Translations under genes and position numbers: made by a program
Assembly (NCBI GenBank): GCA_040954595.2
Contig: CM082596.2
Span: 10,498,461 to 10,562,460 of the forward strand
Direction: 5' to 3'
DNA: 64,000 nt
From: Balanoglossus misakiensis
Taxonomy: Eukaryota > Animalia > Hemichordata
The notes under the pieces: model-generated
Database searches by the model: none
Told to the model about the DNA's origin: nothing
Seen by the model: the letters and a program-made list of their open reading frames with translations, nothing else
Part shown: positions 1 to 53,930 of the stretch, piece after piece
How the letters are laid out: every line of letters begins with the position of its first letter
How positions within the stretch are numbered: position 1 is the stretch's first letter

Positions 1-75
1 TTTGTCACCCCTGGGTACTCTGTGGTTTTTACCGCAGTGCGTCCACGTCCAGCAGAAGGACAACATCTCTACAGT

Positions 76-927
76 ATGCCTCGCCGAAGAAAAGCTTCAA
101 GCACCACCACGAAACCGGTGCCGACCTTGCGAGACTACGAAATCGACGAGGAACAGCGGAGGGTGTGCACTGGTTGCCATCGGAAATTCCAGCACACCTA
201 CGAAGTCTATCAACATGTATGCACGGCCGACAACTTAATACGCCAGCGAGGCATGAAACTAAAGAAAACGGCGGGTGATAAAAAGTCCCCTGTATCGACG
301 CTCCGTGAAGACAGGGACACATTGAAGCCGGCGGAGGATGCCATGAAGCAGGTGGGCGATGCCGAGGAGCGTCAACGGGCTGGCGACGGAAACAGCACTG
401 CAGACGTGGGTATAACGTCTCCTTGCTGTTTAGAAGATGAAATCGGGATGGAGGGGGTCGATCCGTTGGCCGATCTGTATTCGACAGATTGCCCCCTGTT
501 CACTGGCGAAAAAGTGGACGCCACAGGTGAATCGCACCTGCGGAAGGAATGGAGACTCATTCCACTAGAGGGTCAGCGCCGATACGACCCACGGTTGACA
601 GGCCATGGCCGAATTGGTGGGCTCGTGCGGTTCCCGTCAGGGTCTCTTCTGACCCTGTCGGCCGAGGTCGTCGATCGAGTGGTAGAAACCTACTCCACTC
701 GTTGGTTCAACGGAGACCAGCCGACGACCGAGGTGGTCACCCAGCGAGTTTACTACATGCGTGGAAACGAGTTCATCAACGGAGAGGTCGTGCCTGACCA
801 AGGGAGAAAGAGACCATGTCCAACAAGAGCAAGAGCAGACCCGACTGAAGGCGCCCCAGGAAAACCAGCAGAAGTGAATTTGAAGACTGCCAAAAGAAAA
901 TTAGACTTTGACGGTATAGTTTATTGA
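76..927 (+). CDS. Accessory ORF in the 3' region of an LTR retrotransposon; basic N-terminus and C2HC zinc-finger-like motif, function unknown
   Basis: ORF track 22..927, first ATG at 76 (MPRRRKAS). Motif CTGC-x12-H-x-C. GC-richer than the flanks. No RT/RNase H/integrase motifs. Ends ~230 bp before a PPT and LTR. Confidence 0.55.
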   Translation: MPRRRKASSTTTKPVPTLRDYEIDEEQRRVCTGCHRKFQHTYEVYQHVCTADNLIRQRGMKLKKTAGDKKSPVSTLREDRDTLKPAEDAMKQVGDAEERQRAGDGNSTADVGITSPCCLEDEIGMEGVDPLADLYSTDCPLFTGEKVDATGESHLRKEWRLIPLEGQRRYDPRLTGHGRIGGLVRFPSGSLLTLSAEVVDRVVETYSTRWFNGDQPTTEVVTQRVYYMRGNEFINGEVVPDQGRKRPCPTRARADPTEGAPGKPAEVNLKTAKRKLDFDGIVY

Positions 928-8003: not shown

Positions 8004-9634
8004 GTCTGTCCACCCATACATGTAATTACTTCATCTGCTACTGGATTGGTGTCAGATTGTGGTTCCTGGACATTTATCATCTGGACCATTCTCATCTATT
8101 TACTAATTGTCTGGATAGACAGATGTCAAGTGAGTTACATAAAGAGTTACCATTGTATTAGTGTGCCTTATATTAAAATGGAATACCTGTTGCATGCATT
8201 GCACTTTCCCGAGGTTTTCAGTGTGCTTTTTCTCTCGTACCAGCCTTGGAAAATATGTCTTTTTTTGGTCCATCCCATCAATAATGATAACCAATAGATC
8301 ATCATGGTTGTCGCACTGCTTTTTCTCGGGCATTGTGATAAACCGCCCTTTCTGTTCTGAAAAGGAAAGTAATAATATTATCTATATTAATATAATAATA
8401 CATACATATTATAATAGAAACTGTATAATACTAATATGTGCACTATAAATATTGTCACAGTGTGTTCTACTTTGCACATTTTGCTAAGACTTGCCAACTT
8501 TGATAGGAAAAAAAAGTTTAAAATCACTTAAGTTTTCCTGTCTCAGTGATGAAGTACAATCTATGGGTTTCAAAATTTACTGTAAAACGTTACTCTGTCT
8601 AAAAAAACATGAATTGTAGGCATTGTGCCCATTCTATGATACCTGATTCAGAAGAAAATCATACATAATACAGCAACTGTACAAAAAGATACATATGTAT
8701 AATGATGCAACTTACTCAACCCTTGTTTCATGAATTTCACGAACTTTGAGCAGATTTTCCCGTTCAACATCCGTGGAGGCCGAGGATATTGTATTTCTAA
8801 TCTGGGTACAGTCATCACATTCAGCAAAGTCGGACGACTGTAAAATAAAGACACACACTTCACTTTACTAAATTCTAATACTTGTTGGCACTGATATATT
8901 ATGCAACAAACACATTCAACTTATTTTTATCTGTGCAGACAACATTGTTGAAAATCTCACTAAAAATCACTTAAAAACAATAATTGTAAGTAGTAGTGCT
9001 TTTTTAGGGGAACTACTGTAGTGTGTTGGTTATCTCATAAATCCTGAGGGAATAGAGCTGGAAACTGTAATTTTACTAGAACACACACATAAATACAGAA
9101 AGGAAGTTATTCTCACTGCATTTCATTATTGACTGACTAACCTCCAGTCCTTGAATACGATGTTCAATGTAAAAAATACTATGACACTTTCATGCCAGGA
9201 ATCATGTTAATAATACACAAATTTTTTATAACTTGTAAGTGTGAAAAGAATGGAAACTTACCTTCCCAGTACGAAATTCAGGCAAGTGCTTCTTCCAAAA
9301 GTAGCCATATGATATATGTGAGTAGAATGTTGTTCCCATCAGGTGTGTCTTCATAAGTTCCCAAAGATCATACTTCTTCATGAATGTAGGAAGGCGTACT
9401 ATGTTCTTATGTGGCATGAATTCACCTATCCTTTCAAAGTGAAAACGCATCCATGATATTGCTCTAGATGTCTTCTCCTGCATTCTCTTTTTCCCTCGGT
9501 TTCCATGTGATATGTGGGTGACACCAAGTTTTACTTGATTTGCATACTTTGTAAATCTGCGGTGAGTTATGTCATGCACGTTGCACCATGCAACCTCACA
9601 TACACATCTTCCACGAATAACTAGATTCATAATT

Positions 9635-9712
9635 AGGGTTTCGAGACCAGAGGGGTCTCTAAACCCTCTTGAAATCGTCTTGTTTTTTATTATTATTATT
9701 ATTATTATTATT
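9635..9712 (-). other. Helentron 3'-terminal stem-loop and adjacent (TTA)n microsatellite
   Basis: AGGGTTTCGAGACC (9635-9648), loop AGAGG, GGTCTCTAAACCCT (9654-9667): a 14-bp stem with one mismatch, next to AATT. (TTA)~8 at 9688-9712. Typical Helentron/HINE end architecture. Confidence 0.75.
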
Positions 9713-10064
9713 CCCACTCTTAAAAACAGCCGCTATTCGAAGACCGTTGTACCCAATGACTTGAAATTTGGCTCATAGGTAAAACTCAAAGCAAGTAATT
9801 TTCTGATCATGTCACTATGGCAACAGGTCACATGACCTGGCAGCCATCTTGGATTTAAACTTTTAAATTGGTCTCATTTGCATACAAAATGAAGAATCCA
9901 AATTCTGTTCAGAAACTTTGTCGACCATATGGCCAGGGTCCTATATGCCAAATTTCAATGTCTAAGTCCTTGCCGATTTTGGGGAGATGATTTTTAAAGC
10001 ATTATTTTTCATATTTTCTATGACCATTGGACCCAGCCATTGGCCTATACTTTCCATGGTTAAG

Positions 10065-10696
10065 TATGGCGGCCCGTGGCTGCCAATGCTAAAATGCATA
10101 AATATATCTATAGTTTGTGTGTTTTTGTTTGTGTTTTTGTTTGTTTGTGTGTTTTTGTTTGAAAAGAAAATGAAAAGAAATTAAAAACAAAACAAAATAT
10201 AAATATAAATAAAATAAAAACGATATTAAAAACAAAATTGAATAAAAAAAAATTGAAAAGAAAAGAAAACAATAAAATGAAAAGAAAATGAAAAGAAATT
10301 AAAAACAAAACAAAATAAAAATAAAAATAATAATAAAATAAAAACGAAATTAAAAATAAAATTGAATAAAAAAAATTGAAAAGAAAAGAAAACAAAATAA
10401 AATGAAAAGAAAATGAAAAGAAAAGAAAAGAAAAGAAAATGAAAAGAAAATGAAATGAAAAAAAAAAAAATTTAAAAGTGAAATGAAATGAAATTTTTTT
10501 CACCCATGGACTACAGCTGTCATAGTTTACCGGCATGCATTTCGGCCACCATAGACATAGCACGCATGGCAGTGGCAGGTCCAGGCCTGCATATCGCAAA
10601 GATTTTTTTTTCGAATGAAAATTTTTTCACCCATGGACTACAGCTGCCATAGTCCATGGACGAAGGCTGCCGTTAGCCTACAGCTGCCACAGTATC
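10065..10696 (+). repeat. Left TIR of the IS3EU element, with a ~350-bp A-rich low-complexity core
   Basis: Reverse complement of 20939-21453, apart from a ~105-bp extra segment near 10525-10630. Confidence 0.9.
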
Positions 10697-11046
10697 ACGT
10701 GACGACGCTTTGTACAACAACATGAACAAGGTTGGGCCGGCTGGGGGCTGTCATCATCGCCTGTCTCGTAAACTAGCCGAGCTTAGGAAATGCTGGATGA
10801 TGTAACTGCAAAATTTGAGAACATATTGAGGTAGGTGCAGTGGCATAAAATGTTGAGTTTTCGAGTACATCACTCATCATATATTTTTAAAGAAGGTCCT
10901 TTCATTTGCACTTTACATCATAAAATAACGATGATTTTTGGAACATGGCGGATTGCAGCAGTGTTTTCCTGTCATCTGTATCATGTGTATATGCATCGTA
11001 AAATAGTGATATTAAATATTACTTCGCAGCTCACGGATCATATACA

Positions 11047-12462
11047 ATGACTACGGCGTGGACAACGTTTAAGGAGGCAATGAAGGAGAAGAGAGCCGGG
11101 AAAAGGAAGACGAGAAAAGATCGCGGAGACGTACTTGGTTAGTTATATGCGTTGTGTGTGAATACTTTCATCCAATCACCGTGACGCGCCATGGCAGTCA
11201 CACGGGACATAACACGATCAGAACCTGGCAATCGTCCGACCCACACTACTTAAAACCAGTGGCGAGGTTGTTTCTTCTATTTTTACATGTAACTCTATGA
11301 GAAATTAGCACAAATGTACCCAACCACGCCATTTCTAATTTGCTCATTATATATTCATACATGAAAACTTGTCACCAATCACAGTGTAGCCAGAGCCTGT
11401 AAAAGCAGGAATGTAGTGTAATTTAAAATGTAGTGGATCATTTTCAAATTTAAAAGGCTAACTTCAAGAGTGGGCTGATATGTATGTTGTTTGTGTTTTG
11501 CACAATATTTGACTGTGAAGAAAAAAAATAAGTCTTCCTAAAGAGATTCTGTTTTGTGGTTATTTTTGTAAGTTGCTGGGATAAGCTATATATAGCCATA
11601 TAGCTTCTCACAATTTTCTAACAATTGTGCAATAATATTGACAATGCTATATCATTCATTTTTGTCATTTTAGGTGAACAAATTGTTGTCCAGAGGCTGT
11701 CAACAGAAGTGACAGGAAAAGCCCAGAAGTACTCACGGATTGGTCCAAGAGAGTTTGTGCCCTTTAAGGACAGGCAGCTGACATTCAACAACATAAAAAT
11801 TGCATGCGAAAGTTACTTCACAGATATGATAGGAGATACGGTTTATTGTGACATTCTTGCAGGAGAACAAGGGCCATCTTGTTCTGCATTGGATCAAATT
11901 CCTAACTTGAGTCTTATTCACATACGGTTTATACCGCGCCCGCAGGATCTTGACACTGCAAATAGTGATTCTCCAAGTAGCAAGCGAAAACATGCACAAC
12001 TTTCACAGCAATCAACACCTGCACCCAAAACTGTCACGGTGGCAAAGCAGCAATACCCTAAAAGTCTGTCGGTCTTAGACAAGCTAAAACTTGGCAAAGT
12101 CATCAATGGAAAATCTTCAACAGTGATCAGTCTGTTTTCATTTGATATCACACAAATGGCATGGTCATTGATGCCTAAATCAGTGGAGTTTACTATAGAC
12201 AAAGAACCATTTGGTTCTGGTGGGTTTCGTGAAGCATTCAGAGCAGTCAGTCAAACTCCTAAATTTGCTACTTCTGATTGGGTCGTGAAAAAATATCTTA
12301 CTGATGCTTTGTCAACAATAGAGGCCACTAACCAGACTACTGAAGAGCATACCAAAAAAGTTGTACAGATGCACTCCTTAGCCACAAATTTTGCCGAACG
12401 ACTTGTACATCATCTCAAAAAGAAAAATGTTTTGCATCAGTATGGTGAAACACTTAAGTACA
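11047..12462 (+). pseudogene. Alpha-kinase (eEF2K/TRPM6-7-type atypical kinase) gene, N-lobe present, C-terminal half lost by rearrangement
   Basis: Exon 1 11047-11137 (MTTAWTTFKEAMKEKRAGKRK...) splices in phase via GT..AG to exon 2 from 11674. Motifs EFTIDKEPFGSGGFREAFRA, WVVKKY, VQMHSLATNFAERL, LKYN. The frame then runs into an inverted fragment. Confidence 0.75.
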
Positions 12463-12916
12463 ATGCCATTTGTGTGATATCAAATGAAAACAGACTGATC
12501 ACTGTTGAAGATTCAATCAGTGGAGTTTACTATAGACAAAGAACCATTTGGTTCTGGTGGGTTTCGTGAAGCATTCAGAGCAGTCAGTCAAACTCCTAAA
12601 TTTGCTACTTCTGATTGGGTCGTGAAAAAATATCTTACTGATGCACATCATTGCTGCATTAGTAATTTGATATTATAAAAGTGGCATTGTCTTGGTATCC
12701 TGGCTTGGTCAGCTCTACCTGTTACAGACATGTAAGTTCATTGCAGAGATTTCAGCCAGGGGCCCTATTTGTTTGTGTCTAAATCCATATGCAGTGAAAT
12801 TGAGTCTGACATAGAGATAAGCCTAAATGTAATGTTGAAGTTCTTCTTTGGCCTTCTGGGATCATAGCTAAATAGTATCAATATATGTGATAGGTTGTCA
12901 GGCTTGAAAGGGTTAA

Positions 12917-13518
12917 TAGACATGCTAAAACTAGGCAAAGTCATCAATGAAAAATCTTCAACAGTGATCAGTCTGTTTCCATTTGATATCACACAAATGG
13001 CATGGTCATTGATGCCTAAATCAGTGGAGTTTACTATAGACAAAGAACCATTTGGTTCTGGTGGGTTTCGTGAAGCATTCAGAGCAGTCAGTCAAACTCC
13101 TACATGTAAATTTGCTCCTTCTGATTGGGTCGTGAAAAAATATCTTACTGATGCTTTGTCAACAATAGAGGCCACTAACCAGACTACTGAAGAGCATACC
13201 AAAAAAGTTGTACAGATGCACTCCTTAGCCACAAATTTTGCCGAACGACTTGTACATCATCTCAAAAAGAAAAATGTTTTGCATCAGTATGGTGAAACAC
13301 TTAAGTACAATGCCATTTGTGTGATATCAAATGAAAACAGACTGATCACTGTTGAAGATTCAATCAGTGGAGTTTACTATAGACAAAGAACCATTTGGTT
13401 CTGGTGGGTTTCGTGAAGCATTCAGAGCAGTCAGTCAAACTCCTAAATTTGCTACTTCTGATTGGGTCGTGAAAAAATATCTTACTGATGCACATCATTG
13501 CTGCATTAGTAATTTGAT
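12917..13518 (+). pseudogene. Near-identical tandem duplicate of the rearranged alpha-kinase segment (~12077-12680)
   Basis: ORF 12895..13416 repeats LKLGKVIN...IWFWWVS with a few substitutions and a 6-bp insertion (TC). A third, more degenerate fragment lies at ~14394-14525. Confidence 0.85.
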
Positions 13519-16500
13519 ATTATAAAAGTTTTGAGTTGTGCAGGAATCATTCAGATGCTTGTTTACTAAACTAAACTGTATTTTGGTAACTTTTGCAAGT
13601 TCCTTGTTTGTAATAAAATGTGTGTTTGAACCAGAGCACAAAAATCTTCCTATATGCTGTTGTTTTATTGACATGTGACCTGTGAGTATAGCCATATGTA
13701 TGTTGATATAATCATGGAGAATCAACTACCAGATCCATGAAGTGAATAGACTGTGTTTTGATAAATTTTAAAAATATGCAAATTATCGATTATTTATGCA
13801 TGACTTTGCTATATTACTCAGTTTTGTGTGAAATCTGTACCCACAGTTCATCAAATTAAGTGCCGTTGTTTTAAAAATACATAAGCATAGCTAATAGGCC
13901 ACATCGATGACCCCAGAGTGACCTTACATCCTGGTAATTTGTTGGTATGACATCATGCACCATTCTACATTATACGAGATTCATCCATTTATAGCAGACA
14001 AAATTAATATTTTTGTTCTAGCGTGGGGTAGACCACAAATTCAACAGTATCATTCACTTCCAGAGTTACACTCAAATTGGCAGGATGTGAAGGTCATGTA
14101 GGGGTCATGAAAGTAGTCTATTGTATGTACACAGTCTTGTGGGTTTACTATGCATATCATATTGACACAAGATAGAAAAAAGGATGATGATTGATGGTAA
14201 AAGTTGAATTTTTCTACCTGGCACTGAAAGTTTCCAACAGCAATTTTCAGGTACATTTCAGAAACATCTTTGATTCAGAGTATTTCCTCTTAATTCTTTT
14301 CATGAATTTTATTTCAATAAAAACTGAGAAAATAAATTTACAACTTAAGACAAATGAAATGCAAGTAATGTAACCACTTCTATCACTTACTGCTAGGCAA
14401 AGTCATCAATGAAAAATCTTCAAAAATGATCAGTCTGTTTTCATTTGATATAAAATAACATGTAAAGACAAAAAACCATTGCTTCTGGTGGGCTTCGTAA
14501 AGCATTCAGAGCAGTTAGTTAAACTGGACTGAAGTGATCATAATGAGATTGCGAACCATGTTTTCAAAACACTTTTTGCGTACTGTCACAGCATGTTTGA
14601 CATTTTTGCAGACATTTTCAGCGTGGGTGTGTGCTATAATTATCCTTCAGATAGTGGAAAGCATCACTACATTCACACGGCTTGACAACTCTTGGAAATG
14701 GTATTAAACGTTCACATTCTCTACGGAAGTCTGGTTCAAGGAAGTCTATTCCAATGTCAAGAATACCAGCTTGAATGGGCACCTCTTGCAATTCATCATC
14801 ACTGACTTCCCAACCTGTGAAAAATTCAAATACAAAAACAAATATTCAGACAAGTTTTAGTCCACCAGATGACCCTCACTCCAGTTTTCTCATTTGATGA
14901 GCACTGTATACAGGTACATCAACTTAGGTTCCAGGATAGGACATGGCCCTTTTTAAATAAACATTCTGTGTAAGGGGAGAACCATTTGATTTCTGGGGGA
15001 GATGGATGAAAGATAAGTGAGCATATCATATAACTACACATTTTGAAGCTTTGATGTTGTCGGGAATGTACATGTACTTTGTGGTTATTATTGCAAAAGG
15101 GTCAGATATCAATATCCTCCTCTCCTGTTAACTACAACAATTCTACCAGAAGAACCTGACTACAGAGAGCATCAACATAAGCTAGTTTCCAGATTCTATC
15201 TAAATGGAATTAAAAAGCATGTTAACTGTTGAGTATATATACAATATAGGGATATTGTATACCTTGTATACACATGTACCTACCACATTCTTCCGGGTCA
15301 TACACCTCTGGAAAATCATAAATGTGATTTGGTATCCCAGCTGGTAAATTTGAGTCTTTCTGTGCTCGTATCCTATGTGAGTTCCATACTGAATCCTTGA
15401 AGATATCAAGTTCCCTTTGAATGATTGGAATTAGCAAAAATGCCATGAGCATTCTGGAAATAATAGGAATATATTTTAGGAATACATATATACAGGTAGG
15501 TGGCACAGTGATAATCACCTTGAACAAATTACTGTGTTCATCATCTTACCCAGAGGTTACTGACATAACTGTAACACCAACATTTAAAAAAATGTTGTAA
15601 CATTCAATATTTTTCTTTCAAATACTGGCATGAAATTATCTGTATTTACAAATTGTATCTCTGAAACATTTCTAGTTTTAGATTTGATTATTGTGCTCTC
15701 ACTTTTCTTTTGACACACACCTTCTTTATTTGCACTCACCTGTCATGTTGATTGTTTGGATTGTATATACCATGATCCTTCAGCCAGTTCAAGTGACCTT
15801 TGAAATATTTTTCAAGGCGTTCATGAAGTTCCTTCCACCAGCGTTCAATCTGAAATAACACAATACCACCAATGTCAACATATATGTAATTTTCATTAAA
15901 TTTCAAACAAATACCTATAATTATTTATTTGACAAAGAAGGACAGGCATCTTCACAGCCCACCAAACATTAAAGATTTGTTTCAGGCGAATGCGATAAAA
16001 AATGATGGGTGTGTTTGCTTGTGTGTGTGTGTGTGTGTGGCATCTGTGTGCACCTGTATCAGTTCAATATCTCACAAACCGCTTTATTTCAATGTAACCA
16101 AAGTTGGTAAACAGGCATGTATCATAGATTTGAGATGGTGAAACCTTGTTACATTTTAGTGGATGATGCCATTGAGTCAATAGGAACCATATTCTGTGAC
16201 AATTATTGGCTGCCAGACTATATGGAGAACACCATGACACTATTGGCATATTTGGAAATTATTCAACCGAATTAGATGAAACACTGTGTATGTACCTAAC
16301 AAATAAATAAAGGAAAGGGCTCTGTGCTCCCATGAAGGTAGGTGTACATAAAGTCACCGTGCAGGAGAGCACTGGAAAATATTGCAGCATAGTAAAAAAA
16401 ATGATACTGCAGTGGTGACATACAAGCATGACACAGAAAAGCATGGTTGTTGAAAAAGTTACCAATAGGATATCCGATTAGGAATGACAAGATACTGACC

Positions 16501-17369
16501 TGATTTGACGTTGAAGGGCCAAAGATAACTGTATCACATGGATCCATGTAACCATGATTTCTTCGGAGGAATGCATGCATTGTTGCTATTACTCCGGTTT
16601 CGGTACCCTTGTCCATTCTTAACACTGATGGTAATTTTTTTGACTCGTGCAAGTACTCCAAGTACCACCGCCCAATCAATTTAGGATCACTGTTGCTTAC
16701 CCACACATTTAACCACAGAAGTTTTCGACTTGCAGAGTCAATGCACCCATACACGGCAAGCGGAAATGTAGAGTTCTGATATCCCATGAGCTTGTCATGT
16801 CCATCCAGTGAGTGAACCCAGTTGGGACCCTTCGTTGTGAAATTTCCCTTTCCTCTGACCCTCTTCTTAAGGCCGACAGCACCTCTATTTGCCAAACCTT
16901 CAGGGTCAAGTGCCTTCATCACAGTGTATACGAGATCTCTGGGAACATTTAGACCGTGTTCCTGTCTGATTTTCTTATGCATCGCACGATAGCCTAGAAG
17001 TTGGCCAGGTCCCTCCAACTCATCAGCCACAGCTTCTTCGACTTGTTCTCGAGTTATTTTCTGATTGTTGAAATAGATGTCAAAGTATCGGAGCCGTCGG
17101 TCGAGAGAACGGATACTCCAGGCATATTGCAATAAGTCTCTTCTCACGAAATCCAAAATGTCACTGCGGTGAAGGCCCTGTTGTACATATAGTCCATGGG
17201 CCAGACAGGAATTTGGTATCAGAAAGATGGACAAAGCCTCACATGTTTTTTTGGAAAGGCCTATATCTCTAGATTATAAATTGGGGTGATAGCCCTGCCT
17301 ATCGAGTAGCTTTCTGCATTTTTTCCCTCAAAAACTAATGTAAGAACCTAAAAATTTCCGACCCAAATT

Positions 17370-18440
17370 TTGGGGGTAGGGAACTTTAAATTGCTGTAAC
17401 TCCAGCAAAACTTAAGCCAGAAAAGTCATTTACCACTCAAATTGTGTGTTTTTTAGAACTCTACCAATATAATATATTTTGGTGGTAATTCGTTTTGAAT
17501 TGAGGTCAATAGAGGTCAAAAGGTCATGAAATTTGGGTCATTCTGAAAATTTGTAGTATGACTATTTCTTGAACGATTTTTTTAACTTAAGTCTTCAAAT
17601 GTCATTTACAAGATAAAATACTCTCCCAGAATCTATTTCAAACCAATAGAAAACCTTATTATTCATTTATGACCAGAAAAACACAAATAAGGAGAAACGA
17701 CAGAAAGACATCCAATTTTCCACTCAGATTTAAGGGTAGGGGAAACTTAAGTTCTTGTAACTCCGGCAAAAATAAACCCAGAACAGTCATCTACCACTCA
17801 AATTGTGTGTTGTTTAGAACTCTACCAATATAATATATTTTGGTGGTAATTCGTTTTGAATTGAGGTCAATAGAGGTCAAAAGGTCATGAAATTTGGGTC
17901 ATTCTGAACGTTTGTAGTATGACTATTTCTTGAACGATTTTTGTTGAACTTATAAGTCTTTAAATGTCATTTAGAAGATAAAATACTCTCCCAGAATCTA
18001 TTTCAAACCAACAAAAAACCCTATTATTCAATTACGATCAGAAAAACACAAATACAGAGATGCGGAAGAATGGCACAAAACTTCAGACCCTGTTATTGGG
18101 GTAGTAGTTGTAACTCCGGCAAAAATAAAGCCAGAACAGTCATCTACCTCTCAAATTGTGTTTTTTTAGCACTCTAGCGATTGTATATGTATTTGTTGCA
18201 ATTTTGTTTTGAATTTAGGTCAAAGAGGTCAAAAGATCACAAGATTTGGGTAATTTCGAAAAATTATGGTACGAACATTTCCCGCATTAATTTTTTAAAC
18301 CCAAGTCTTCAAATGTCATTTATGAGATAAAATACTCTACACGATTTTTTTCAGACCAATTGAAGACCTTATTATTCAATTACAATCAGAAAAACAATTA
18401 GTAGAGAAACGGGATAATAACAAACAATTTCCCACGGATT
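17370..18440. repeat. ~361-bp unit repeated about three times in the Academ left arm (about two copies in the right arm)
   Basis: GAATTGAGGTCAATAGAGGTCAAAAGGTCATG at ~17497 and ~17858, with a diverged copy at ~18211. Reverse-complement copies at ~20140 and ~20500. Confidence 0.8.
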
Positions 18441-18603
18441 TTGGGGGAGGTTTGGCCATCTAACAGGTAAGTATACACCCAACTGATCATGCACATATGG
18501 TGTTTAGGAGAACGGATGTGCAAATTTGTGAACCTTTGCATGCTGCTCATGTGCACTGTACTTGTATGATGATTCCTAACAATACTACGAGAAGGGGCCA
18601 TTA

Positions 18604-18786
18604 GGCTGCATCCACAAACACCTCTGGAGGGGGGGGGGCAGGAGAATTGAGGGGGGGGGGGGGATTTGAAAAAATTGAGGGTATGTAAGGGGGGGGGATT
18701 AAATATTTATTTTGAGTCCACAAAAATGCAGTTTCGCGCCCTTTATTTTACAACCCCCCCGTCCAGAGGTGTTTGTGAATGCAGCC
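18604..18786. mobile_element. PIF/Harbinger-like MITE nested in the Academ element
   Basis: TIRs GGCTGCATCCACAAACACCTCTGGA / TCCAGAGGTGTTTGTGAATGCAGCC, TTA on both sides (18601-18603, 18787-18789), internal G-runs. Confidence 0.8.
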
Positions 18787-19262
18787 TTATAGCATTGTAG
18801 CTCTGATTGTGTATTATTGTTGGATACCATCCTACAGTGTACAGGCACAGCAGATGACAAGCCAAGCAAAGGTTCAAAAATCTGCTTATTTTTTTTCCTC
18901 AATACAATATGAGCATGATCTATTTATATTCAGGTCCAGTATAATAAATAAAAAAATGGCCTCGTCACTCTACAAGATCACGCCTCCTGGATAACTTTGC
19001 TGAATACAGCTAACATACAAAAATACAAACCAATTCAGGACCTCGCCATTGGTTTGGGCGAAGGTGAAATTCTTTACGATGAAAAAGGCTCTTGAATCTA
19101 TCCTTTCTAAAGAGCAGTCGTCATCAACTGAGGGAACCAATACACTGGAACGTAAAAAAGAGGTCGAGCATGCAATTAAGGGTCTCGGTGTGATCACATT
19201 TGCCTATTTTGCTCCCCCACCAAGTACATGAAGGGAAGTAGGACAAGAGCTCCTTTAGTTCA

Positions 19263-19835
19263 TTGTCAGCAATTGCGTGCGGACAACACATTAAGGGAGG
19301 CAGCAACAAGAAAAATGACAGTAAAATTCGTGCACTTCTCAGTCGTGAGTTGGTTGCTGCTGAGGGTCACTATCATAGAAAGTGTTATAGGGACTATACA
19401 AGGCCTGATATTCAAGCAGGTTCAAGTCATATGGAGGTTGATGAAAGTCAACATGATCAAGATACTAGTTATGAGGATGTCCTGCAAATTGCTCAAGAAG
19501 AGTTATTTTCTTTTATCAGAAATGATTTGTTCACAAACCCTGAGGTAGTTCCCCTGACTGATGTATGAAACAAGTTAGTTACCAAAATGCTCCAACTTGG
19601 TGTTAAACAGGTTAACAATTCCACCAACAAAACTTGCAGCATATGCTAAATACGGAATTCAAAGGGACATTGATTTTTTTTGAATGATGTAAATGGTAGG
19701 GTGCTTGTATATCCGTTATCACTAGATAAAGGTACTGTTGACCTGAAGTACAATGCTGTAAGAAAAGAACTTCTTGCAGCAGAAAAACAATCACATGAAA
19801 GTATCATCACCACATCTGCTCTAATCCTGCTTACG
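19263..19835 (+). pseudogene. Degraded N-terminal fragment of an Academ-like transposase
   Basis: KNDSKIRALLSRELVAAEGHYHRKCYRDYTRP motif (LVAAE.xYHxxCY), followed by frameshifted fragments, inside the Academ TIRs. Confidence 0.55.
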
Positions 19836-20938
19836 CTGCTTGAATATCAGGCCTTGTATAGTCCCTATAACACTTTCTAAGATAGTGACCCTCAGCAGCA
19901 ACCAACTCACGACTGAGAAGTGCACGAAAATCCGTGGGAAATTGTTTGTTATTATCCCGTTTCTCTACTAATTTTTTTCTGATTGTAATTGAATAATAAG
20001 GTCTTCAATTGGTTCGGGAAAAAAATGGTGTAGAGTATTTTATCTCATAAATGACATTTGAAGACTTGGGTTTAAAAAATTAATGCGGGAAATGTTCGTA
20101 CCATAATTTTTCGAAATTACCCAAATCTTGTGATCTTTTGACCTCTTTGACCTAAATTCAGAACAAAATTGCAACAAATACATATACAATCGCTAGAGTG
20201 CTAAAAAACACACAATTTGAGTGGTAGATGACTGTTCTGGGTTTATTTTTGCCGGAGTTACAAGAACTTAAGTTTCCCCTACCCTTAAATCTGAGTGGAA
20301 AATTGGATGTCTTTCTGTCGTTTCTCCTTATTTGTGTTTTTCTGGTCATAAATGAATAATAAGATTTTCTATTGGTTTGAAATACATTCTTGGAGAGTAT
20401 TTTATCTTCTGAATGACATTTAAAGACTTAAGTTCAAAACTATCGTTCAAGAAATAGTCATACTACAAATTTTCAGAATGACCCAAATTTCATGACCTTT
20501 TGACCTCTATTGACCTCAATTCAAAACGAATTACCACCAAAATATATTATATTGGTAGAGTTCTAAAAAACACACAATTTGAGTGGTAAATGACTGTTCT
20601 GGCTTTAGTTTTGCTGGAGATACAGCAATTTAAAGTTCCCCTACCCCCAAAATTTGGGTCGGAAATTTTTATGTTCTTACATTAGTTTTTGAGGGAAAAA
20701 ATGCAGAAAGCTACTCGATAGGCAGGGCTATCACCCCAATTTATAATCTAGAGATATAGGCCTTTCCAAAAAACCACATGAGGCTTTGTCCATCTTTCTG
20801 ATACCAATTCATGAAAAATCGGGTCCTGGCCCATGGACTAATATTTTCTCAGTTCCTCCTTGAGGTAAACATCCTCCATCCACGCATTTGTTCGGAAGGC
20901 CGCCATGTTGTTTCCAAGAAAACCGAAATGCATTGTTG

Positions 20939-21453
20939 GATACTGTGGCAGCTGTAGGCTAACGGCAGCCTTCGTCCATGGACTATGGCAGCTGTAGTCC
21001 ATGGGTGAAAAAATTTTCATTTCATTTCACTTTTACATTTTTTTTTTTTTTACTTTTTTTTTTTTTTTTTTTCATTTCATTTTCTTTTCATTTTCTTTTC
21101 TTTTCTTTTCTTTTCATTTTCTTTTCATTTTATTTTGTTTTCTTTTCTTTTCAATTTTTTTTATTCAATTTTGTTTTCAATTTTGTTTTTATTTTATTTT
21201 TATTTTTATTTTTATTTTGTTTTGTTTTTAATTTCTTTTCATTTTCTTTTCATTTTATTGTTTTCTTTTCTTTTCAATTTTTTTATTCAATTTAGTTTTT
21301 AATATCGTTTTTATTTTATTTATATTTATATTTTGTTTTGTTTTTAATTTCTTTTCAAACAAAAAACACACAAACAAACAAAAACACAAACAAAAACACA
21401 CAAACTATAGATATATTTATGCATTTTAGCATTGGCAACCACTGGCCGCCATA
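20939..21453 (-). repeat. Right TIR of the IS3EU element, with a T-rich core
   Basis: Reverse complement of the left TIR. The transposase ATG lies ~33 bp inside it. Confidence 0.9.
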
Positions 21454-21699
21454 GTTAAGCTATGGCCCCCTAGGATTTTAGATTTATGCCCAATATCTCA
21501 ACATCCGCTGGGCTGATCAGCTTCAAATTTTGTGTGCAGCTAGCCTACCTTCCGACAATCAGTTCCAACTGAAAAAAATAATATGAAAAATCGACCGATT
21601 TTTTTATATTAATTTTTTTATGAAATCTATACCTATACTTATTCCACTATACATAGTTTTCTAGAATTCTGGTCGGTGCAATAGTCCTATGGCCTAGTG

Positions 21700-23040
21700 T
21701 GCAGCATAGGACCAAAATGAGAAGCCAAATTAAGGCTCACCTGTGACACCTGCTTAACTCATTAACTATTTGCATACCTAATTCCAGACAAACCAATAGG
21801 GCTACAGGTCTGGTTTTTGTCGGAAATGGACCAGTATGGGGTCAAATTTTTTCCCCAAATTTTGGGTGACCTTGGGTGACCTTTGACCTACTTTCGCATA
21901 TCTCAGCATCCAGAGCAGGTACAGCTTAGGTGTTTGGGTGGATGGGACCAAAATAAGAAGCCCAATTTAAAGGTCACCTGTGACACCTGCTTGACTCATT
22001 AGTTATGTGCATACCTAATTCCAGGCAAACCAATAGGGCTACAGGTCTGGTTTTTGTCGGACATGGACCAGTATGGGGTCAAGTTTTTCCCCGAAATTTT
22101 GGGTGACCTTGGGTGACCTTCGACCTACTTTCGCATATCTCAGCATCCAGAGCAGGTATAGCTGAGGTGTTTGGGTGGATGGGACCAAAATAAGAAGCCC
22201 AATTTAAGGGTCACCTGTGACACCTGCTTAACTCATTAATTATGTGCATATCTAATTCCAGGCAAACCAATAGGGCTACAGGTCTGGTTTTTGTCGGACA
22301 TGGACCAGTATGGGGTCAATTTTTTCCCCGAAATTTTGGGTGACCTTGGGTGACCTTTGACCTACTTTCGCATATCTCAGCATCCAGAGCAGGTATAGCT
22401 GAGGTGTTTGGGTGGATGGGACCAAAATAAGAAGCCCAATTTAAAGGTCACCTGTGACACCTGCTTAACTCATTAATTATGTGCATATCTAATTCCAGGC
22501 AAACCAATAGGGCTACAGGTCTGGTTTTTGTCGGACATGGACCAGTATGGGGTCAAATTTTCCCCCCAAATTTTGGGTGACCTTTGACCTACTTTCGCAT
22601 ATCTCAGCATCCAGAGCAGGTACTACAGCTTAGGTGTTTGGGTGGATGGGACCAAAATAAGAAGCCTTTGACTTATTTTCATATATCTCGGCATCCAGAG
22701 CAGGTACAGCTTAGGTGTTTGGATGGATGGGACCAAAATAAGAAGCCAAATTTTAGGGCCACCTGTGACACCTGGTGAACTCATTAACTATGTGCACACC
22801 AAATTCCAGGCCAACCAACACGGCTACAGGTCTGGTGTTTGTTGGACATGGACAACTATGGTGTCAACATTTTCTGCCCACATTTCGGGTGATCTCAGCT
22901 GACCTTTAACCTATTTTGCTTTGTCTTGGCATCCAGAGCAGGTACAGCCTTGCCATTTGTAGGTATAGCACTAAAAGGAAAACCCTTCTTTCGGGGTGAT
23001 TTGTGAAATCTGCTTATTTCATTAATTATGTGCATACTTA
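21700..23040. repeat. 237-bp tandem repeat, ~5 copies, in the Helentron 3' subterminal region
   Basis: GGGCTACAGGTCTGGTTTTTGTCGG at 21799, 22036, 22273 and 22510 (237-bp spacing), with a diverged copy near 22820. Confidence 0.9.
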
Positions 23041-25566
23041 ATTTTACAAACACTAGCAAATGTATCATAATTTGCTGTGCAAGATTGATAATGTTTCAGT
23101 AGGTGCGCAAATGTGCTGTTTCATGGTTCACTTATTGCACTTTGTGGGAACAATTTTGAGTTCACTTCAATCTCCTTTACTGTAAATTTCGTGCTATGAT
23201 TTAGTGATCTATTTCAGCATATTACAGCAATTGAACAATTTAGGAACCCATTCCACAACAATTTCTCTTCACAAAACGAATACAGCACAGCGGTTTGAAA
23301 ATACAAGTTCTCTTTAATGTTATTGGTCTCTATGGAGAATTCCAGTGTTGAGCACAATATGTGCAATTGTTATCAGTTCCACAGTGACTGTTGGGACACA
23401 TTCCATGTCGCACAGTATGCTATAAGTTGAGAATGCATTCCACTGTGGGGAAAGTGTTGTGCTGTGGAAATGGTATGCACAATGACATTGACCTTAGTCG
23501 TCCGTCAATATATGTCCGGAAAAGTGTGTATTAGCCATTTCACAGCATTATATGTATACAATCGTAATATGCCACAGTTCATACAAATACATATTATATT
23601 CAGTAACTGCAATTGCAAACACCTTAACGTACTATTAAATATATTAATTTGCTATACATACATAACACTGTGAGTGAACGTTTCTATCCCCAAAGTTATT
23701 TCATAAAACCACAGAACATCACTTTGCTTAAAAAACAACAAGTCACATTTCTCAAATAATCACAGAAAAGTAACCTCTACAGAACACCAAAATTCCTTGC
23801 ATTTATCCATTGCCACAATGTGCATGCATGTCACAATACTTCCCAGTAATCACATAACAATCTGATGTCATCATTGTTTGATTTAAGTACAAACAATTGA
23901 ATGGAATCCCTTGTTATACAAAAGGTATGTATTTTATAAGGCCAGGATCTCTTTTTGTGAGGTCTGCACAAGATGTCCATCATTTTTGAGAGTATGACTA
24001 CAGGCCAATGCTAATCAGGGACAAGTAAACAAACATAGTGCTAAGGACACTATGGTCCAATTGAGGGATTACAGAAGAAAAAATGTACACGCAGTACAGA
24101 CACACACACATCAAGAGATCAACAAACAAACAGTGACTGACCCATACAGTTACCACTGGCATGTGTACTGTAAATGCAACAAATCAAACAGCTGCACTCT
24201 TTAACAATTAGCCACTTATGTACACATGCAGGAATTTGGTGTTTGTACACAGCTCAACAACATTTCATTTATAGCCCTGCCAGTATCTTTACACTAAATA
24301 TACTGTTCCTGATGTGGGTGGACATACATACACACTGAACATATAGTGGACCCTTGCTATAATGAACAATATAATATAACGCACATAAACATTTTTCCTG
24401 TGATGAAATTGAATTGTCAACTAGCTGCCACAATAGCATGTGCGTCTATGATGAACACTTCGTAACTTGTAAACTTGTGTACAATCCATTCACATACATT
24501 GGTATGCTCCAAAAGATGACATTTTGCAATTTGGTGCCCAGATACTGTTGTTTCTGTATTAAGTAAACCAATTGATTTACTATGCACCACTATGTACAGT
24601 GCAACATTCATCCATGTACAGTACTCTTCATACGGTAGTCTATTCTTCACAAGTTCAATGTCTTTAATGACATTGGCAGGGCTTGAAGGTCACCATGCAA
24701 ATTCACATTTGAGAACTGGATTCCAGAGTGCAGCATAAAATGTATAACATTCAGGGCTGATACGAATGACATATTCCACTGTATACCAATAGTCCAGCAA
24801 ATGCACAGGATTAAAATGGATCATAATCCATGCGCCTGAACACAGTTAGCTTGCCTGGACAAGTTTACATCTGCTGTGAACACTGGGAGTGAGGTGATGT
24901 TCGAATTTCCAGTCTTATGGTGTTACCCAGAAATTGCTTAGTACATGTAGCAAAATTTGTGTGCAGCAGTTTGCAGACAGTTCCAGTGTTGCTAGAGTCA
25001 ACACAGTTTTTGCAGAGTAAAAATGTAACAGCAGGCTATATGACAGACGTACCCATGTGTCAAGATAGGTAAGTTTGACAGGTCTGCATTAATTCTTCCA
25101 CGAATTCCAACATGAAGCTGCTTGCCACTAGGTACAATTTTAGCGACATTACATTGATGACACCATTCCTCTTGAACCAATATTTCCATGATGACATCCT
25201 GCTGATCTTTCCATTGTGGTATACAGCAGAACACAATGTTCTTGGTTCATAATATCGTTGGCCATCTGTCCAGTGATGGCATGGTCACTGTCGTTAACTT
25301 GCTGAAGATCACAACCAGGAAGCTTCACCTTATGCATGGTGTCATTAGTTTTGCATGGAATGAAACAGATACCATTTCATACTGTGCTGTATGTATGTGC
25401 ACTTTAAAGTCTCCTGGTAATATATTCTTCCAATATCGCCTTCTCACAGTTAGAAAAATTTACATACAAAAGTGTTCACTTCAGCAAATTCCTTGCACTT
25501 TGTCTCCTAGCATAATCATTACAGCAAGGGTCCACTAATGTACATGTTCATCCATACACATACCTG

Positions 25567-25768: not shown

Positions 25769-28700
25769 GGAGAGACATGCTACACACAGAAATGCAGACA
25801 GACGCAACGAAGCCCATAGTGTCCCACTGATATATATAGCAAACAAAAAATAACACATTAGCACAGTACACCAATGAGTAAGTTTTGATTACAGATTCAG
25901 TCACAGATGCTCCACTCTAATTATATCAGAATAAACCAGTTATGGGTACAGATTCATTTACAGATGCTGCCACATTATTTCCAAGTAACACATTGACCTT
26001 TATTTCCAATACAAATTGGTTTCCCCCTTGTCTTCCTTCAGACGAATGGCCGTTGACTTACATGTGCCACTGTGGCCCCTTATGACATTGAAAACATGTA
26101 GGACTCTAAAATTCACATCGGTTATTTCAAACCCATTCAGTACTTTACACAATGTAAATTTGGCATATTGATTTAAATTTTCACGCACAATGCATTGCGA
26201 AAACTGAAATAAGTTTGCACTATTTCAACACTTGCATTGTGTACATTTTTCACATAGACGTGGTCAATCAATGTTTCACTCTCTGTAGTTGATTCTGTCA
26301 CACACTGTCTAAATCCCCTTTCCTCCATTAATTTGAGCACAGGTGAAGAGACCAATATGTTTTCATTGAAGTCACCAGTGATAATGTTGCCACCAGGTCT
26401 TTTCTCCATCTCTATCATCAACTGCACAAGGTTCTTCCTAAACAGACTACTCTTATATGATTGAGGTCTATATACAACGGCTACAGTCAGTTTCTGATCT
26501 GTCACATAGAATGCAGTGAATTCCAAATTTGCAACTGACATTTTCAAGATGTCAATGCATTGATTCACACTTGAATAAACACCTACTCCTCCATGAGCCT
26601 GCTGTTTTAAATCTGATGTGACAGGGTCAGAGGTGTCGTAGCACAGTCCCCTTGGTTTGTGGTGAAATTCAAATCCACTCAGTGGTACATCAGTCTGCGT
26701 ATCTGTGATTGCTAGCCACGTTTCTGTCAAGCATATAAAGTCAACTGTCATAAATCTGTTGTCTGCTTGCAGGTCCTGGAAATGAGAGTACAACCCCTGT
26801 ATATTGTGCAACATAATAGTGCATGAACATTCAACATTTTCAGTTCCTTCAGGTGACATCTGTAACTTTGGCATGCATGATAACACACCACTGATTTTGC
26901 TATTGCAGTATATAGCAGATTTGTCGAAATCTTTTATACTAAGCCCACTTAGAGATTTTACTCGACTCAACGCCACATAAGCTTGTCCGGGCTGAAATAT
27001 TTTGTGCAATGACACTACAGCTTCCTCTACAGTTAAACCTTGTACCTTATGCACCGTGCCTGCCCACGCAAGTTTCAATGGAAATTGTCGTCTAATACTG
27101 CCACAATTATTCACTCTATCTTCCTCACACTTGATTGGTGTACTTCTTTCGGGTATTGATGTCAATGTCTCTGTGTGGCTGCGAAGTTTTGTACCAATTT
27201 GGTCATTGTCAAAACGAACATATACAGTAGATGGGAAAGTCTCACCGGGCTTCACATATATATAAGAAACAGTGCCAAAAACACCATTTACTAGGCCATC
27301 AGACACATCAATGTTACTTGTTAACATGACACGAGCACCTACAGCCAATGTCACACTTTTTGGCAAATTTGTACTGTACAGTTTGCTGTGGTGGCCATTT
27401 ATTTTGATTAGTTTCTTTGTTTTTGGATCTCTGCGGAAATCCTGTGCATCGATGGACATTATTGGTACATCTGAACAAATAGAGTGAAGTTTTGTGATAT
27501 TACATTCGTTAAAATCTTTGTTTCGTGCAAAAATGTGAATTCCAGTACTCTCCTCACCAGTTTCACACTTATGTAGCATGTCAATTATGCCAGCATCCAA
27601 GTCTTCTGATTTCTCTCTCTTACGGATAACATTTAAAGCTCTGGCAAATTCTGGGTCTTGCTGTCTCACAATGTCAGTAAATTCAGCAATGACAAAGTAG
27701 TCATTCCACAGATCAACACCCTCATTGTCCATGTACAATGCCTTTCCTTTTACTGGAGATAATTGGTAGAAATCACCAACAGAAATTACTGATACACCAC
27801 CAAATGGGCACTGATCACCAGTTTGTTTGATTTGCCTCAATCTCCCATGAACATAACTCAGTAGTTTCTTATCAACCATTGATATCTCATCAATAATGAG
27901 AATTTGCAGATTACCAAGCTTTGCTCTCAATGTATTAATTTTCTCTTGTCCAAGTGGTTGGTATGGCAGTTTGGCATCGATAGGTATTGAGAACGTACTA
28001 TGTATAGTAGTTGCACCTATATTAAATGCAGCTACACCTGTCGGTGCAGTGAGAAGAACACAGACATCATGTGGATTTAGTAGAAAACGTGCCAGAATTC
28101 TTGATGCTTCATAGTACACAGCTTTGATTAAATGAGATTTCCCTGTACCTGCACCACCAGTTACAAATATGTGAAAAGAACCCACAATATTTCCAGTAGC
28201 CTTCTTCAGACACCATTGTCTTACCCAGTAAAATATTTCTCGCTGTCTCTTGTTTAAAGATCTCATCAATACCACAGCTTCACTTCTTGACATACCACAA
28301 TGGTGATGGACTGCACCAGCAGACATTTTCTTGTCTTTTTTCAGCAAATCTGGCATAGATTCATCACTTTCATTTTCATTTTCCATAGGATCATCTTTCC
28401 TTTCTTGTTCACTCTCCAATCTATCCATTTCAGTTGATGGATGAATTTGTGCCCATGCATCTTCCAAATTATCACTTGTTCGAAGTATTTCCTCGGCTGA
28501 ATCCAGCACATCAGCTTCTTTCTCAAATACAGCTCTATTTCTTTGCACTATTTCTTTCACAGCTACTACACCTTCTGCACCAAACTTGACTCCACCAGTG
28601 TTATAAAAATCTTCAAATGAGTCAAACTTGTCAGGTTTCAATTGGGTATCAATGCGAAAAGGCAAGAACAACTGCAGAATACTTTGATAAAATTTCTCCG

Positions 28701-31700: not shown

Positions 31701-31729
31701 CCTGTACTTTTCGATGTATCTTGCCTTCA

Positions 31730-32045
31730 CAGCTGCTCTGTGAGACTCATTCCTTTCATACTTTGCAATACTTTGTCTCTTAACATCTTCTCTATGAAAC
31801 TGATTCTCCTCATACTTTGAAATACTTCGTCTCTTTACCTCTTCTCTATGAAACTGATTCTCCTCATACTTTGCAACACTTCTTCTCTTTACATCTTCTC
31901 TATGAAACTGATTCTCCTCATACTTTGAAATACTTCGTCTCTTTACCTCTTCTCTATGAAACTGATTCTCCTCATACTTTGCAACACTTCTTCTCTTTAC
32001 GTCTTGTCTGTGCAATTCGTTGCCCTAATACTTTGCTATACTGTG
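31730..32045 (-). repeat. Coding 60-bp (20-aa) tandem repeat KYEENQFHREEVKRRSIS-like, ~5 copies, alternating A/B variants
   Basis: ORF 31482..32015 translation. Confidence 0.9.
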
Positions 32046-33954: not shown

Positions 33955-34160
33955 AATGACCAGCTTCATTATCAAGGTCGAAGGGGTCCCGAGCCCCATA
34001 ATTTCCACATTCCCTATCCAAGTTCACACAGCCCAAAGGCACATTATTTCCACATTCATTATCCAGGTTCATAAGGTCCCGAGGGACATAATTTCCAGAT
34101 TCATTATCCAAGTTCATAAGGTCCCGAGGGACATAATTTCCAGATACATTATCCACTGTA
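33955..34160 (-). repeat. Coding 45-bp (15-aa) repeat DNESGNYVPRDLMNL, ~4.5 copies
   Basis: N-terminus of ORF 32306..34240. Confidence 0.85.
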
Positions 34161-47769: not shown

Positions 47770-47772
47770 AAT

Positions 47773-47790
47773 TGGGGGCTCGTCCGGGAT
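47773..47790 (+). promoter_or_regulatory. Primer-binding site complementary to tRNA-Pro
   Basis: TGGGGGCTCGTCCGGGAT, 3 nt after the 5' LTR; the classical 18-nt tRNA-Pro PBS. Confidence 0.92.
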
Positions 47791-47848
47791 CTATCCTTGA
47801 ATTCATTCAGTGCGCACGGTCAACAACGGTTCACAATTACTATTCGTA

Positions 47849-53796: not shown

Positions 53797-53919
53797 AATG
53801 TATAACAGGATAGCTTTTTGAAATGATTCTTGAATGATTCTTGAAATGATGTTTTTGAAATAATTAACATATGTGATTACCCCTTGAAAAACGTCACCAT
53901 GGTAACGTTTTTCTTTTCT

Positions 53920-53930
53920 GAGGGGGGAGG
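53920..53930 (+). promoter_or_regulatory. Polypurine tract
   Basis: GAGGGGGGAGG immediately before the 3' LTR. Confidence 0.9.

What the first reader, a model, noticed from the sequence alone, without database searches (positions are those of the whole stretch)
10065..21453. IS3EU-type DNA transposon carrying its own spliced alpha-kinase gene
Seen: a TIR/TSD-bounded element (TAT..ATA, GTTAAG TSD) with two convergent intron-containing genes, each starting just inside a TIR. One is a 409-aa integrase-core transposase (minus strand). The other (plus strand, 11047 onward) has a basic NLS-like N-terminus, an unknown domain (QKYSRIGPREFVPF...CDILAGEQGPSC) and alpha-kinase N-lobe motifs (PFGSGGFREAF, VVKKY). 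Established: alpha-kinases (eEF2K, TRPM6/7, ALPK1) are atypical signalling kinases, and IS3EU is poorly characterised. Inference: the symmetric layout suggests the kinase is a regular second gene of this family rather than random capture. It could modulate host translation, immunity or silencing, or the transposase itself. I know of no description of this pairing but cannot search the literature.
Basis: partly seen in the sequence, partly recalled or inferred. Interest (0 to 1): 0.85.

Follow-up and report, generated by a model that had tools for sequence, protein, structure and literature searches.

The report
Dead transposon carrying its own kinase
This is a broken copy of a known kind of jumping gene (IS3EU) with a protein-kinase gene facing its transposase gene; related elements in marine animals keep the same pair, a pairing already mentioned in print for fungi, and the kinase likely helps control the element's own jumping.

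Summary
The element is real: 10065-21453, TATGG..CCATA ends, 97.8% identical inverted repeats, GTTAAG target duplication. Both genes are broken in this copy. A nested 3.65-kb transposon splits the transposase; 409 aa appears only when it is removed. The kinase stops after residue 296 at a local inversion and lacks its whole C-lobe. The kinase is a regular second gene, not a one-off capture. 41 of 80 related loci hold a tail-to-tail transposase, including 14 of 14 clusters with at least 2 kb of flank, and none lies in another orientation. Relatives keep the catalytic residues; median dN/dS is 0.18. The pairing is already in print for fungal IS3EU (PMC12730594), and this scan noted it before on other DNA. 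Added here: the animal range, a ubiquitin-like N-terminal fold, inverted repeats that abut both start codons, and weak predicted kinase-transposase binding (0.41, best control 0.00). Function is untested. New member of a known kind; interest 0.4.

The parts
10059..10064 (.). Left target-site duplication GTTAAG
   Evidence: identical to 21454-21459
10065..10696 (+). Left terminal inverted repeat: TATGG end, A-rich body, subterminal CCATGG..CTGCCA motifs; one subterminal unit is present twice
   Evidence: 439 of 449 identical; 10614-10696 equals the reverse of 20939-21021
11047..11137 (+). Kinase gene exon 1: N-terminal helix and basic stretch (possible nuclear signal, inferred)
   Evidence: 77% to residues 1-26 of Saccoglossus P0002; helix 2-17 in the model
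11674..12470 (+). Kinase gene exon 2, native part: ubiquitin-like (beta-grasp) domain about 11676-11939, linker, alpha-kinase N-lobe; ends at residue 296
12460..13529 (+). Rearranged kinase sequence: inverted 54-bp copy of 12112-12165 joined at a 9-bp microhomology, a 130-bp re-copy of 12178-12307, and a 613-bp duplication (12917-13529 of 12076-12682). No C-lobe
14393..14525 (+). Third, degraded kinase N-lobe fragment
14618..17186 (-). IS3EU transposase: rest of exon 1 (17186-16500) and exons 15849-15740, 15453-15284, 14814-14618; DDE core
17190..20840 (.). Nested 3,651-bp DNA transposon: TAG..CTA ends, about 860-bp inverted repeats (89%), 3-bp TSD, decayed fragments of a protein like a 1,552-aa relative; Academ-like (label recalled, not tested)
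   Evidence: a contig lacking it in the same sample
20841..20906 (-). First 22 codons of the transposase, cut off by the nested element
20939..21453 (-). Right terminal inverted repeat, ending CCATA
21454..21459 (.). Right target-site duplication GTTAAG

Best explanation
This is a dead copy of a two-gene IS3EU cut-and-paste transposon; in intact relatives the second gene encodes an alpha-kinase that is likely an accessory of transposition, predicted to bind and likely to phosphorylate the element's own transposase. Shown: the anatomy, the breaks in both genes here, the conserved tail-to-tail layout inside inverted repeats in animal relatives, the retained catalytic residues and purifying selection. 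Predicted: an N-terminal ubiquitin-like domain and weak binding to the transposase. Inferred: both genes are transcribed inward from equivalent promoters in the two repeats and so are made together; the basic N-terminus takes the kinase to the nucleus; the ubiquitin-like domain docks or dimerises it; phosphorylation switches the transposase on, limits it or stabilises it. This copy can make neither protein and could move only in trans. The identity and the regular pairing are about 0.97 certain; the confidence given is for the mechanism.
For: Linkage: 41 of 80 kinase loci (the best 80 of 142 found) have a convergent transposase, none in another position; 27 of 30 loci and 14 of 14 clusters with at least 2 kb downstream. 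The element end lies upstream of the kinase in 21 of 26 loci with at least 600 nt of flank, against 3 of 520 shuffles. L072 has both ends and a 6-bp TSD. Five loci of one family have different flanks; a sixth has only 2 nt of flank. Two adjacent locus-tag pairs in the anemone Actinostola: QZH41_001510/001511 and 019354/019355. The repeats end 5-88 nt from the estimated kinase start and -2 to 45 nt from the estimated transposase start in 10 of 14 loci. Catalytic K, E, H, D, Q, D are present in 41-44 of 44 rows and the C-terminal zinc ligands in 36-38. dN/dS median 0.18 over 106 non-independent pairs. Kinase and transposase distances correlate (Mantel rho 0.53, p 0.0009, 14 elements). Complex prediction 0.41 against a best control of 0.00; runs share at least 48% of contacts; partner pLDDT at least 69. 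The tool's mark was reached by 51 of 78 solved pairs and 2 of 108 mismatches, but at 0.60 or below by only 5 of the 78 solved pairs and by all 4 mismatches that passed.
Against: No substrate, activity or expression data. The complex score is weak by the tool's own account (more often wrong than right unless likely beforehand), used proteins from two different elements (L001 kinase, P0296 transposase) and gave no interface. Linkage was tested kinase-first only; the share of transposases that carry a kinase is unmeasured. The GingerRoot paper has no occurrence of 'kinase', and the single one in the Styx paper is a host gene, so related elements may move without one, which fits a dispensable role. 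The trees are poorly resolved and L072 is discordant; linkage alone predicts correlated distances. In the window the kinase ATG is 350 nt from the repeat. Conservation fits a host-directed role equally well.
Confidence: 0.45

Rival explanations
1. The kinase acts on host proteins (silencing, DNA-repair or stress and immune factors) to protect or license the element, as proposed for transposon-borne TET/JBP genes.
For: Same conservation and selection data. In fungi the kinase sits beside TET/JBP genes, which Kojima 2025 proposes counter methylation silencing. Ubiquitin-like domains often dock host partners (general knowledge). Host alpha-kinases act in translation (eEF2K) and innate immunity (ALPK1) (general knowledge; structural neighbours).
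Against: A host-targeting factor in conflict with its host would be expected to evolve fast; here the N-terminal domain has 62% mean column identity across 26 diverse rows and dN/dS is low. The weak transposase-binding prediction points the other way. No host partner was tested.
Confidence: 0.35
2. The kinase is a structural second subunit of the transpososome, like the Myb/SANT protein of Harbinger elements (recalled); binding or nuclear import matters and phosphorylation is secondary or self-directed.
For: Strict two-gene layout with repeats abutting both starts; basic N-terminus; weak predicted binding.
Against: The whole catalytic set is conserved, which a pure scaffold would not need; no DNA-binding fold was seen.
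Confidence: 0.12
3. The kinase is passive cargo: a host alpha-kinase fragment captured at this locus or carried without function.
For: GingerRoot elements often carry captured gene fragments (PMC6839031 passages). This copy's kinase is broken. Databases name relatives 'TRPM6-like' or 'vwkA-like'.
Against: Same position and orientation in 14 of 14 informative clusters at about 45% mean identity between elements; purifying selection; relatives are about 420-aa stand-alone proteins without channel domains; the same pairing in fungi.
Confidence: 0.03
4. The kinase is a persistence or addiction factor that is toxic or growth-modifying for germ cells and favours carriers of the element.
For: REP9-1, cargo of an IS3EU-related fungal element, affects host reproduction (PMC8232023 passages).
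Against: No antidote gene or third ORF was seen in the window's element; copies that lost the kinase persist, as here.
Confidence: 0.05

Closest known systems
IS3EU/GingerRoot superfamily (Repbase; Kojima and Bao 2023, PMC10045372), e.g. IS3EU-1_DR, IS3EU-2_SK, IS3EU-4_CGi
   Same: TA..TA ends and 6-bp TSD. The DDE core motifs match by eye those printed in the paper's supplement. Two proteins per element (PMC8232023). Already known from zebrafish, Hydra, beetle, acorn worm and a fungus (PMC11934779).
   Different: The passages read do not name the second protein of the animal families ('kinase' has 0 occurrences in PMC10045372). Repbase entries were not available, and they may name it.
TET+ IS3EU families of rust fungi and Tuber (Kojima 2025, PMC12730594)
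   Same: TAYGG..CCRTA ends, 6-bp TSD, transposase and alpha-kinase in opposite orientations.
   Different: Animal host; no third gene was seen between the two in the window (not scanned against a TET profile); the kinase here has an N-terminal ubiquitin-like domain. Orthology of the fungal and animal kinases was not tested by alignment; a Basidiomycota-dominated cluster ranks third by language-model features (0.97).
Host alpha-kinases (ChaK/TRPM7 kinase 1ia9, MHCK A, eEF2K, ALPK1)
   Same: Same fold and catalytic set: profile E 4e-27 to 1ia9, 5e-19 to MHCK A, 6e-19 to eEF2K, 1e-10 to ALPK1; Foldseek E 3e-18.
   Different: About 420 aa, stand-alone, with a beta-grasp N-terminal domain, multi-copy and inside transposon ends; only 16-23% identity to the solved structures.
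Two-gene DNA transposons with an accessory protein (PIF/Harbinger, Kolobok; recalled)
   Same: A conserved second gene travels with the transposase.
   Different: Their second proteins are not kinases (recalled, not checked here).

Membership tests
IS3EU/GingerRoot | TA..TA (TAYGG..CCRTA) termini | tested here: met
   TATGG..CCATA; definition
IS3EU/GingerRoot | 6-bp TSD | tested here: met
   GTTAAG on both sides; CAGCTC in relative L072
IS3EU/GingerRoot | TIRs longer than 30 bp | tested here: met
   439 of 449 identical
IS3EU/GingerRoot | Integrase-like DDE transposase, first D 100-300 residues from the N-terminus | tested here: met
   D150, D214, E253; Pfam rva_4 above cut-off; motifs match the printed IS3EU cores by eye
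IS3EU/GingerRoot | Placement inside the IS3EU/GingerRoot clade in a transposase tree | not tested
   No reference IS3EU sequences were available to the tree tools; comparison by eye only
IS3EU/GingerRoot | Two encoded proteins | tested here: met
   Two gene models, both broken in this copy; definition from PMC8232023
Alpha-kinase family (PF02816) | Profile score above the curated cut-off | tested here: inconclusive
   Window fragment 15.5 bits against a cut-off of 21.3 because it is truncated; full-length relatives 108-126 bits
Alpha-kinase family (PF02816) | Complete catalytic and zinc-binding set in this copy | tested here: not met
   The window row keeps the Gly loop and Lys but lacks everything from the E312 equivalent on; it is filed as a pseudogene of the family, not a working kinase
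Alpha-kinase family (PF02816) | Complete catalytic and zinc-binding set in relatives | tested here: met
   36-44 of 44 rows per residue; fold match
Alpha-kinase family (PF02816) | Protein kinase activity | not testable with these tools
   Needs an assay
Ubiquitin-like (beta-grasp) fold, N-terminal domain | Structural match to beta-grasp domains | tested here: inconclusive
   Model pLDDT 94 with the beta-beta-alpha-beta-beta order; the top 50 rows are nearly all ubiquitin-like or PB1, but the best Z is 6.5 (rmsd 3.4, 72 aligned), under the tool's mark of 8; Foldseek best E 4.5e-3. Fold class likely, subfamily unassigned
Academ (nested element) | TAG..CTA ends, 3-4 bp TSD, large transposase (features recalled) | tested here: inconclusive
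   Ends, 3-bp TSD and matches to a 1,552-aa protein seen; no Pfam hit; no defining text retrieved (listings; passages)

The most novel reading that the evidence does not exclude
Animal and fungal IS3EU elements share an ancient self-encoded kinase that binds and phosphorylates their own transposase, co-expressed from twin promoters in the terminal repeats: a DNA transposon that carries its own signalling switch for transposition, with a new ubiquitin-like docking domain in the animal lineage.
Probability: 0.3. Interest if true: 0.8.

Novelty: new member of a known kind. Interest (0 to 1): 0.4.

Why it matters
The pairing was found in print in one paragraph, about fungi, with no function given (five searches combining kinase and transposon terms). 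The data here show the same module under purifying selection in animal DNA and point to near-intact elements (e.g. L001, L009, L012, L033) with which to test what a transposon-encoded kinase does. If it regulates the transposase, that would be a form of transposon self-control not found in these searches. A practical point: these proteins are annotated as 'TRPM6-like' or 'vwkA-like' host genes in coral, anemone and hemichordate genomes, so alpha-kinase counts there are probably inflated by transposons. This copy itself is a dead relic.

Tried and rejected
No host genome is held, so copy number and a genome-wide TIR search were not possible. No RNA holder was listed, so expression and splicing are untested. 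Viral contigs gave no relative of the kinase (0 of 393 candidate stretches) or the transposase (0 of 16); prokaryote genomes gave none for the transposase (0 of 20). The N-terminal domain gave no shared Pfam family, no PDB sequence match (best E 0.7), no usable Atlas hit and no Foldseek match at E<=0.001. The weak Pfam EDC4_C hit is below cut-off and overlaps the kinase helix; rejected. The 'ITVED' after the break resembles the family's VTVEE motif and extends BLAST alignments, but it is read from the inverted segment; rejected as native sequence. An intact kinase C-lobe in this host was not shown: only 30 letters of each loose end are displayed. A strict dN/dS on uninterrupted ORFs (20 of 80 loci) left 6 usable pairs of 190, all one comparison, omega 0.24-0.25; 156 were saturated and 28 near-identical. 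My first transposase model failed on a wrong start coordinate (fixed); a frame slip was fixed. Kojima 2019 and Iyer 2014 are not held and may describe the second protein. Look-ups of earlier findings by sequence, by place and by narrower words were empty.
Full report
Observation. The element runs from 10065 to 21453, with GTTAAG repeated on both sides and ends TATGG..CCATA. The terminal repeats align at 439 of 449 bases, and an inner 83-bp unit matches exactly. A 6-mer match by chance has probability about 3e-4. The surroundings are repeat-rich animal-like DNA with a Helitron-like ORF cluster, a Gypsy-like element and a 142-bp satellite (labels from my reading of the ORFs). No host genome is held. 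The closest named kinase relative is from Saccoglossus (63%); the host is not identified.

Transposase. The minus-strand gene has four exons and gives 409 aa with D150, D214 and E253, but only after a 3,651-bp nested element (17190-20840) and one copy of its 3-bp duplication are removed from exon 1. The nested element has TAG..CTA ends, long inverted repeats and decayed matches to a 1,552-aa protein; I call it Academ-like from memory. In run X1 a 2,245-nt contig covers 14972-17186 with 10 differences and joins to 20841 (30 letters on the short side), so a form without the insertion exists in that sample. All three runs are one sample, possibly the window's own source. The exon-1 product hits Pfam rva_4 above cut-off and has 970 relatives; the 120 listed are 63-78% identical, and the named ones in that list are cnidarian. 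Its motifs match by eye the IS3EU cores printed in the supplement of PMC10045372.

Kinase. Exon 1 (11047-11137) and exon 2 (from 11674) give 296 native residues. At 12470 the sequence switches, at a 9-bp microhomology, into an inverted copy of 12112-12165, then re-copies 12178-12307; the block is duplicated at 12917-13529. A template switch during repair is the likely cause (inference). The fragment scores 15.5 bits on Pfam Alpha_kinase, below cut-off. It has 238 relatives in one search and 1,161 clusters at E<=0.001 in another. Four full-length relatives tested score 108-126 bits. A profile of 44 sequences matches ChaK (1ia9) at 4e-27, then MHCK A, eEF2K and ALPK1, and the model of P0002 agrees. 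In those 44 rows the catalytic Lys, Glu, His, Asp, Gln and Asp are present in 41-44 and the C-terminal zinc ligands in 36-38; the window row lacks everything after the N-lobe. Contigs in X1 and X2 continue past the break in frame as F-L-G-K, the family's next motif, so less damaged copies exist, but a full C-lobe was not seen. Contigs joining 11349 to 14974 on opposite strands have higher depth than the transposase region (174 against 39 in X1), hinting that rearranged derivatives are common; depth is not copy number.

N-terminal domain. Nearly all of the top 50 structural rows are ubiquitin-like or PB1 domains; the best is 6i1d_B (Z 6.5, rmsd 3.4, 72 aligned), then an SB132 ubiquitin-like domain and the RBBP6 DWNN domain (5.5). 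These Z values are middling, so the fold class is likely and the subfamily unassigned. Ubiquitin-like domains of other kinases (TBK1, protein kinase D) are in the same list; a shared fold shows no function.

Is the kinase a regular gene of the element? A kinase-profile scan of metagenome contigs found 142 relatives; the best 80 were kept. Their transposases keep introns at the window's three positions in 15 of 20, 20 of 25 and 31 of 34 scorable loci, so this is eukaryotic DNA of common descent. 41 of 80 hold a transposase downstream on the opposite strand and none elsewhere. With at least 2 kb downstream it is 27 of 30 loci; the three misses (L058-L060) retain only the first 124-147 kinase residues. 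By cluster at 85% identity it is 14 of 14 (2 kb) and 16 of 18 (1 kb; misses L017 and L029/L053), a cluster counting as positive if any member has the transposase. The terminal motif lies upstream of the kinase in 21 of 26 loci with enough flank (misses L002, L026, L055, L068, L078), against 3 of 520 shuffles. L072 is complete with a CAGCTC duplication, and five loci of one family have different flanks. In Actinostola two kinase/transposase pairs have consecutive locus tags on contigs of equal length. Kinase dN/dS has median 0.18 and maximum 0.93 over 106 pairs with dS 0.1-1.5; the pairs are not independent and include decayed copies. Distances of the two proteins correlate across 14 elements, one per cluster out of 29 rows with both (rho 0.53, p 0.0009); the trees share two clades, are otherwise unresolved, and L072 is discordant. 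This was a kinase-first test; how many transposases lack a kinase is unknown.

How it likely works. In 10 of 14 loci with both gene starts the inverted repeat ends within 88 nt of the estimated kinase start and 45 nt of the transposase start; the other four have 144 nt of flank or less on each side. I infer twin inward promoters and co-expression. A complex prediction of a full-length transposase (P0296) with the L001 kinase scored 0.41 against a best control of 0.00, with at least 48% shared contacts and partner pLDDT at least 69. The tool calls this weak: at 0.60 or below only 5 of 78 solved pairs passed, and so did all 4 mismatches that passed; the two proteins come from different elements and alignments were not used. 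Taken with the layout, I favour a kinase that acts on its own transposase (0.45) over one that acts on host silencing or repair factors (0.35), a structural subunit (0.12), an addiction factor (0.05) or passive cargo (0.03).

Literature. PMC12730594 (passages, the first part of the Discussion, a supplement search) states that all TET+ IS3EU families have a TET/JBP gene between transposase and alpha-kinase genes of opposite orientation, with TAYGG..CCRTA ends and 6-bp TSDs; the parts read give no function for the kinase. PMC10045372 (passages and supplement passages) defines IS3EU/GingerRoot and does not mention kinase. PMC8232023 and PMC10853768 (passages) say IS3EU elements encode two proteins. 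PMC11934779 (passages) lists animal hosts and calls the structure and function largely unexplored. PMC6839031, PMC3520738 and PMC4455052 were seen as passages only. Five searches combining kinase and transposon terms listed no paper that, by title or abstract start, describes the animal pairing or a function; most listed papers were not opened. Repbase, Kojima 2019 and Iyer 2014 could not be read and may already describe it. Earlier notes of this scan report the pairing in fungi and in one invertebrate; they are unchecked and were found after the paper.

Verdict. A real but dead IS3EU element. The kinase is a conserved second gene of the lineage and the pairing is known from fungi. The animal range, the ubiquitin-like domain, the symmetric repeat layout and the weak binding hint are additions. 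New member of a known kind; interest 0.4, because the kinase's role is open and testable.

Noticed in passing
window 10503, 10630, 20995 and 17190, 20830: The 11-mer CCCATGGACTA occurs five times in the 64 kb: three times in the IS3EU inner repeats and at both ends of the nested element. Coincidence or a shared end motif; unexplained.
   Followed up: partly
window 17190-20840: Nested TAG..CTA transposon with about 360-bp subterminal repeats, an internal 93-bp inverted copy (19327-19419 / 19836-19928) and very high contig depth in the sample.
   Followed up: partly
window 11349 joined to 14974; 11136 to 14815; 11756 to 12471: Contigs of the same sample show opposite-strand joints, so other copies of this family carry internal inversions.
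   Followed up: partly
window 13907-14113 and 12741-12916: Short high-depth stretches inside the element, the first with loose ends on both sides; probably small repeats inserted later.
   Followed up: no
window 26173-34243 (-): Long ORFs that look like a Helitron (Rep, PIF1-like helicase, endonuclease, OTU-like region; my reading, not scanned).
   Followed up: no
window 35054-64000: 142-bp satellite array (83 and 65 copies) interrupted at about 46900-54800 by a Gypsy-like element with integrase upstream of reverse transcriptase and an internal duplication (labels by eye).
   Followed up: no
window 9226-9732 (-): ORF fragment that looks like a piece of another DNA-transposon protein; no Pfam hit.
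   Followed up: partly
window 21709-23043: 237-bp tandem repeat just right of the element.
   Followed up: no
L042, L052, L054: The transposase lacks the last intron while the kinase is on the same contig; either intron loss or assembled convergent transcripts with overlapping 3' ends.
   Followed up: no
P0002 residues about 161-180 (window 12050-12110): A conserved helix before the kinase has low model confidence in the monomer; it may be a swapped dimerisation helix as in TRPM7 (recalled).
   Followed up: no
window 1-927 (+): GC-rich open frame running off the left edge, not characterised.
   Followed up: no
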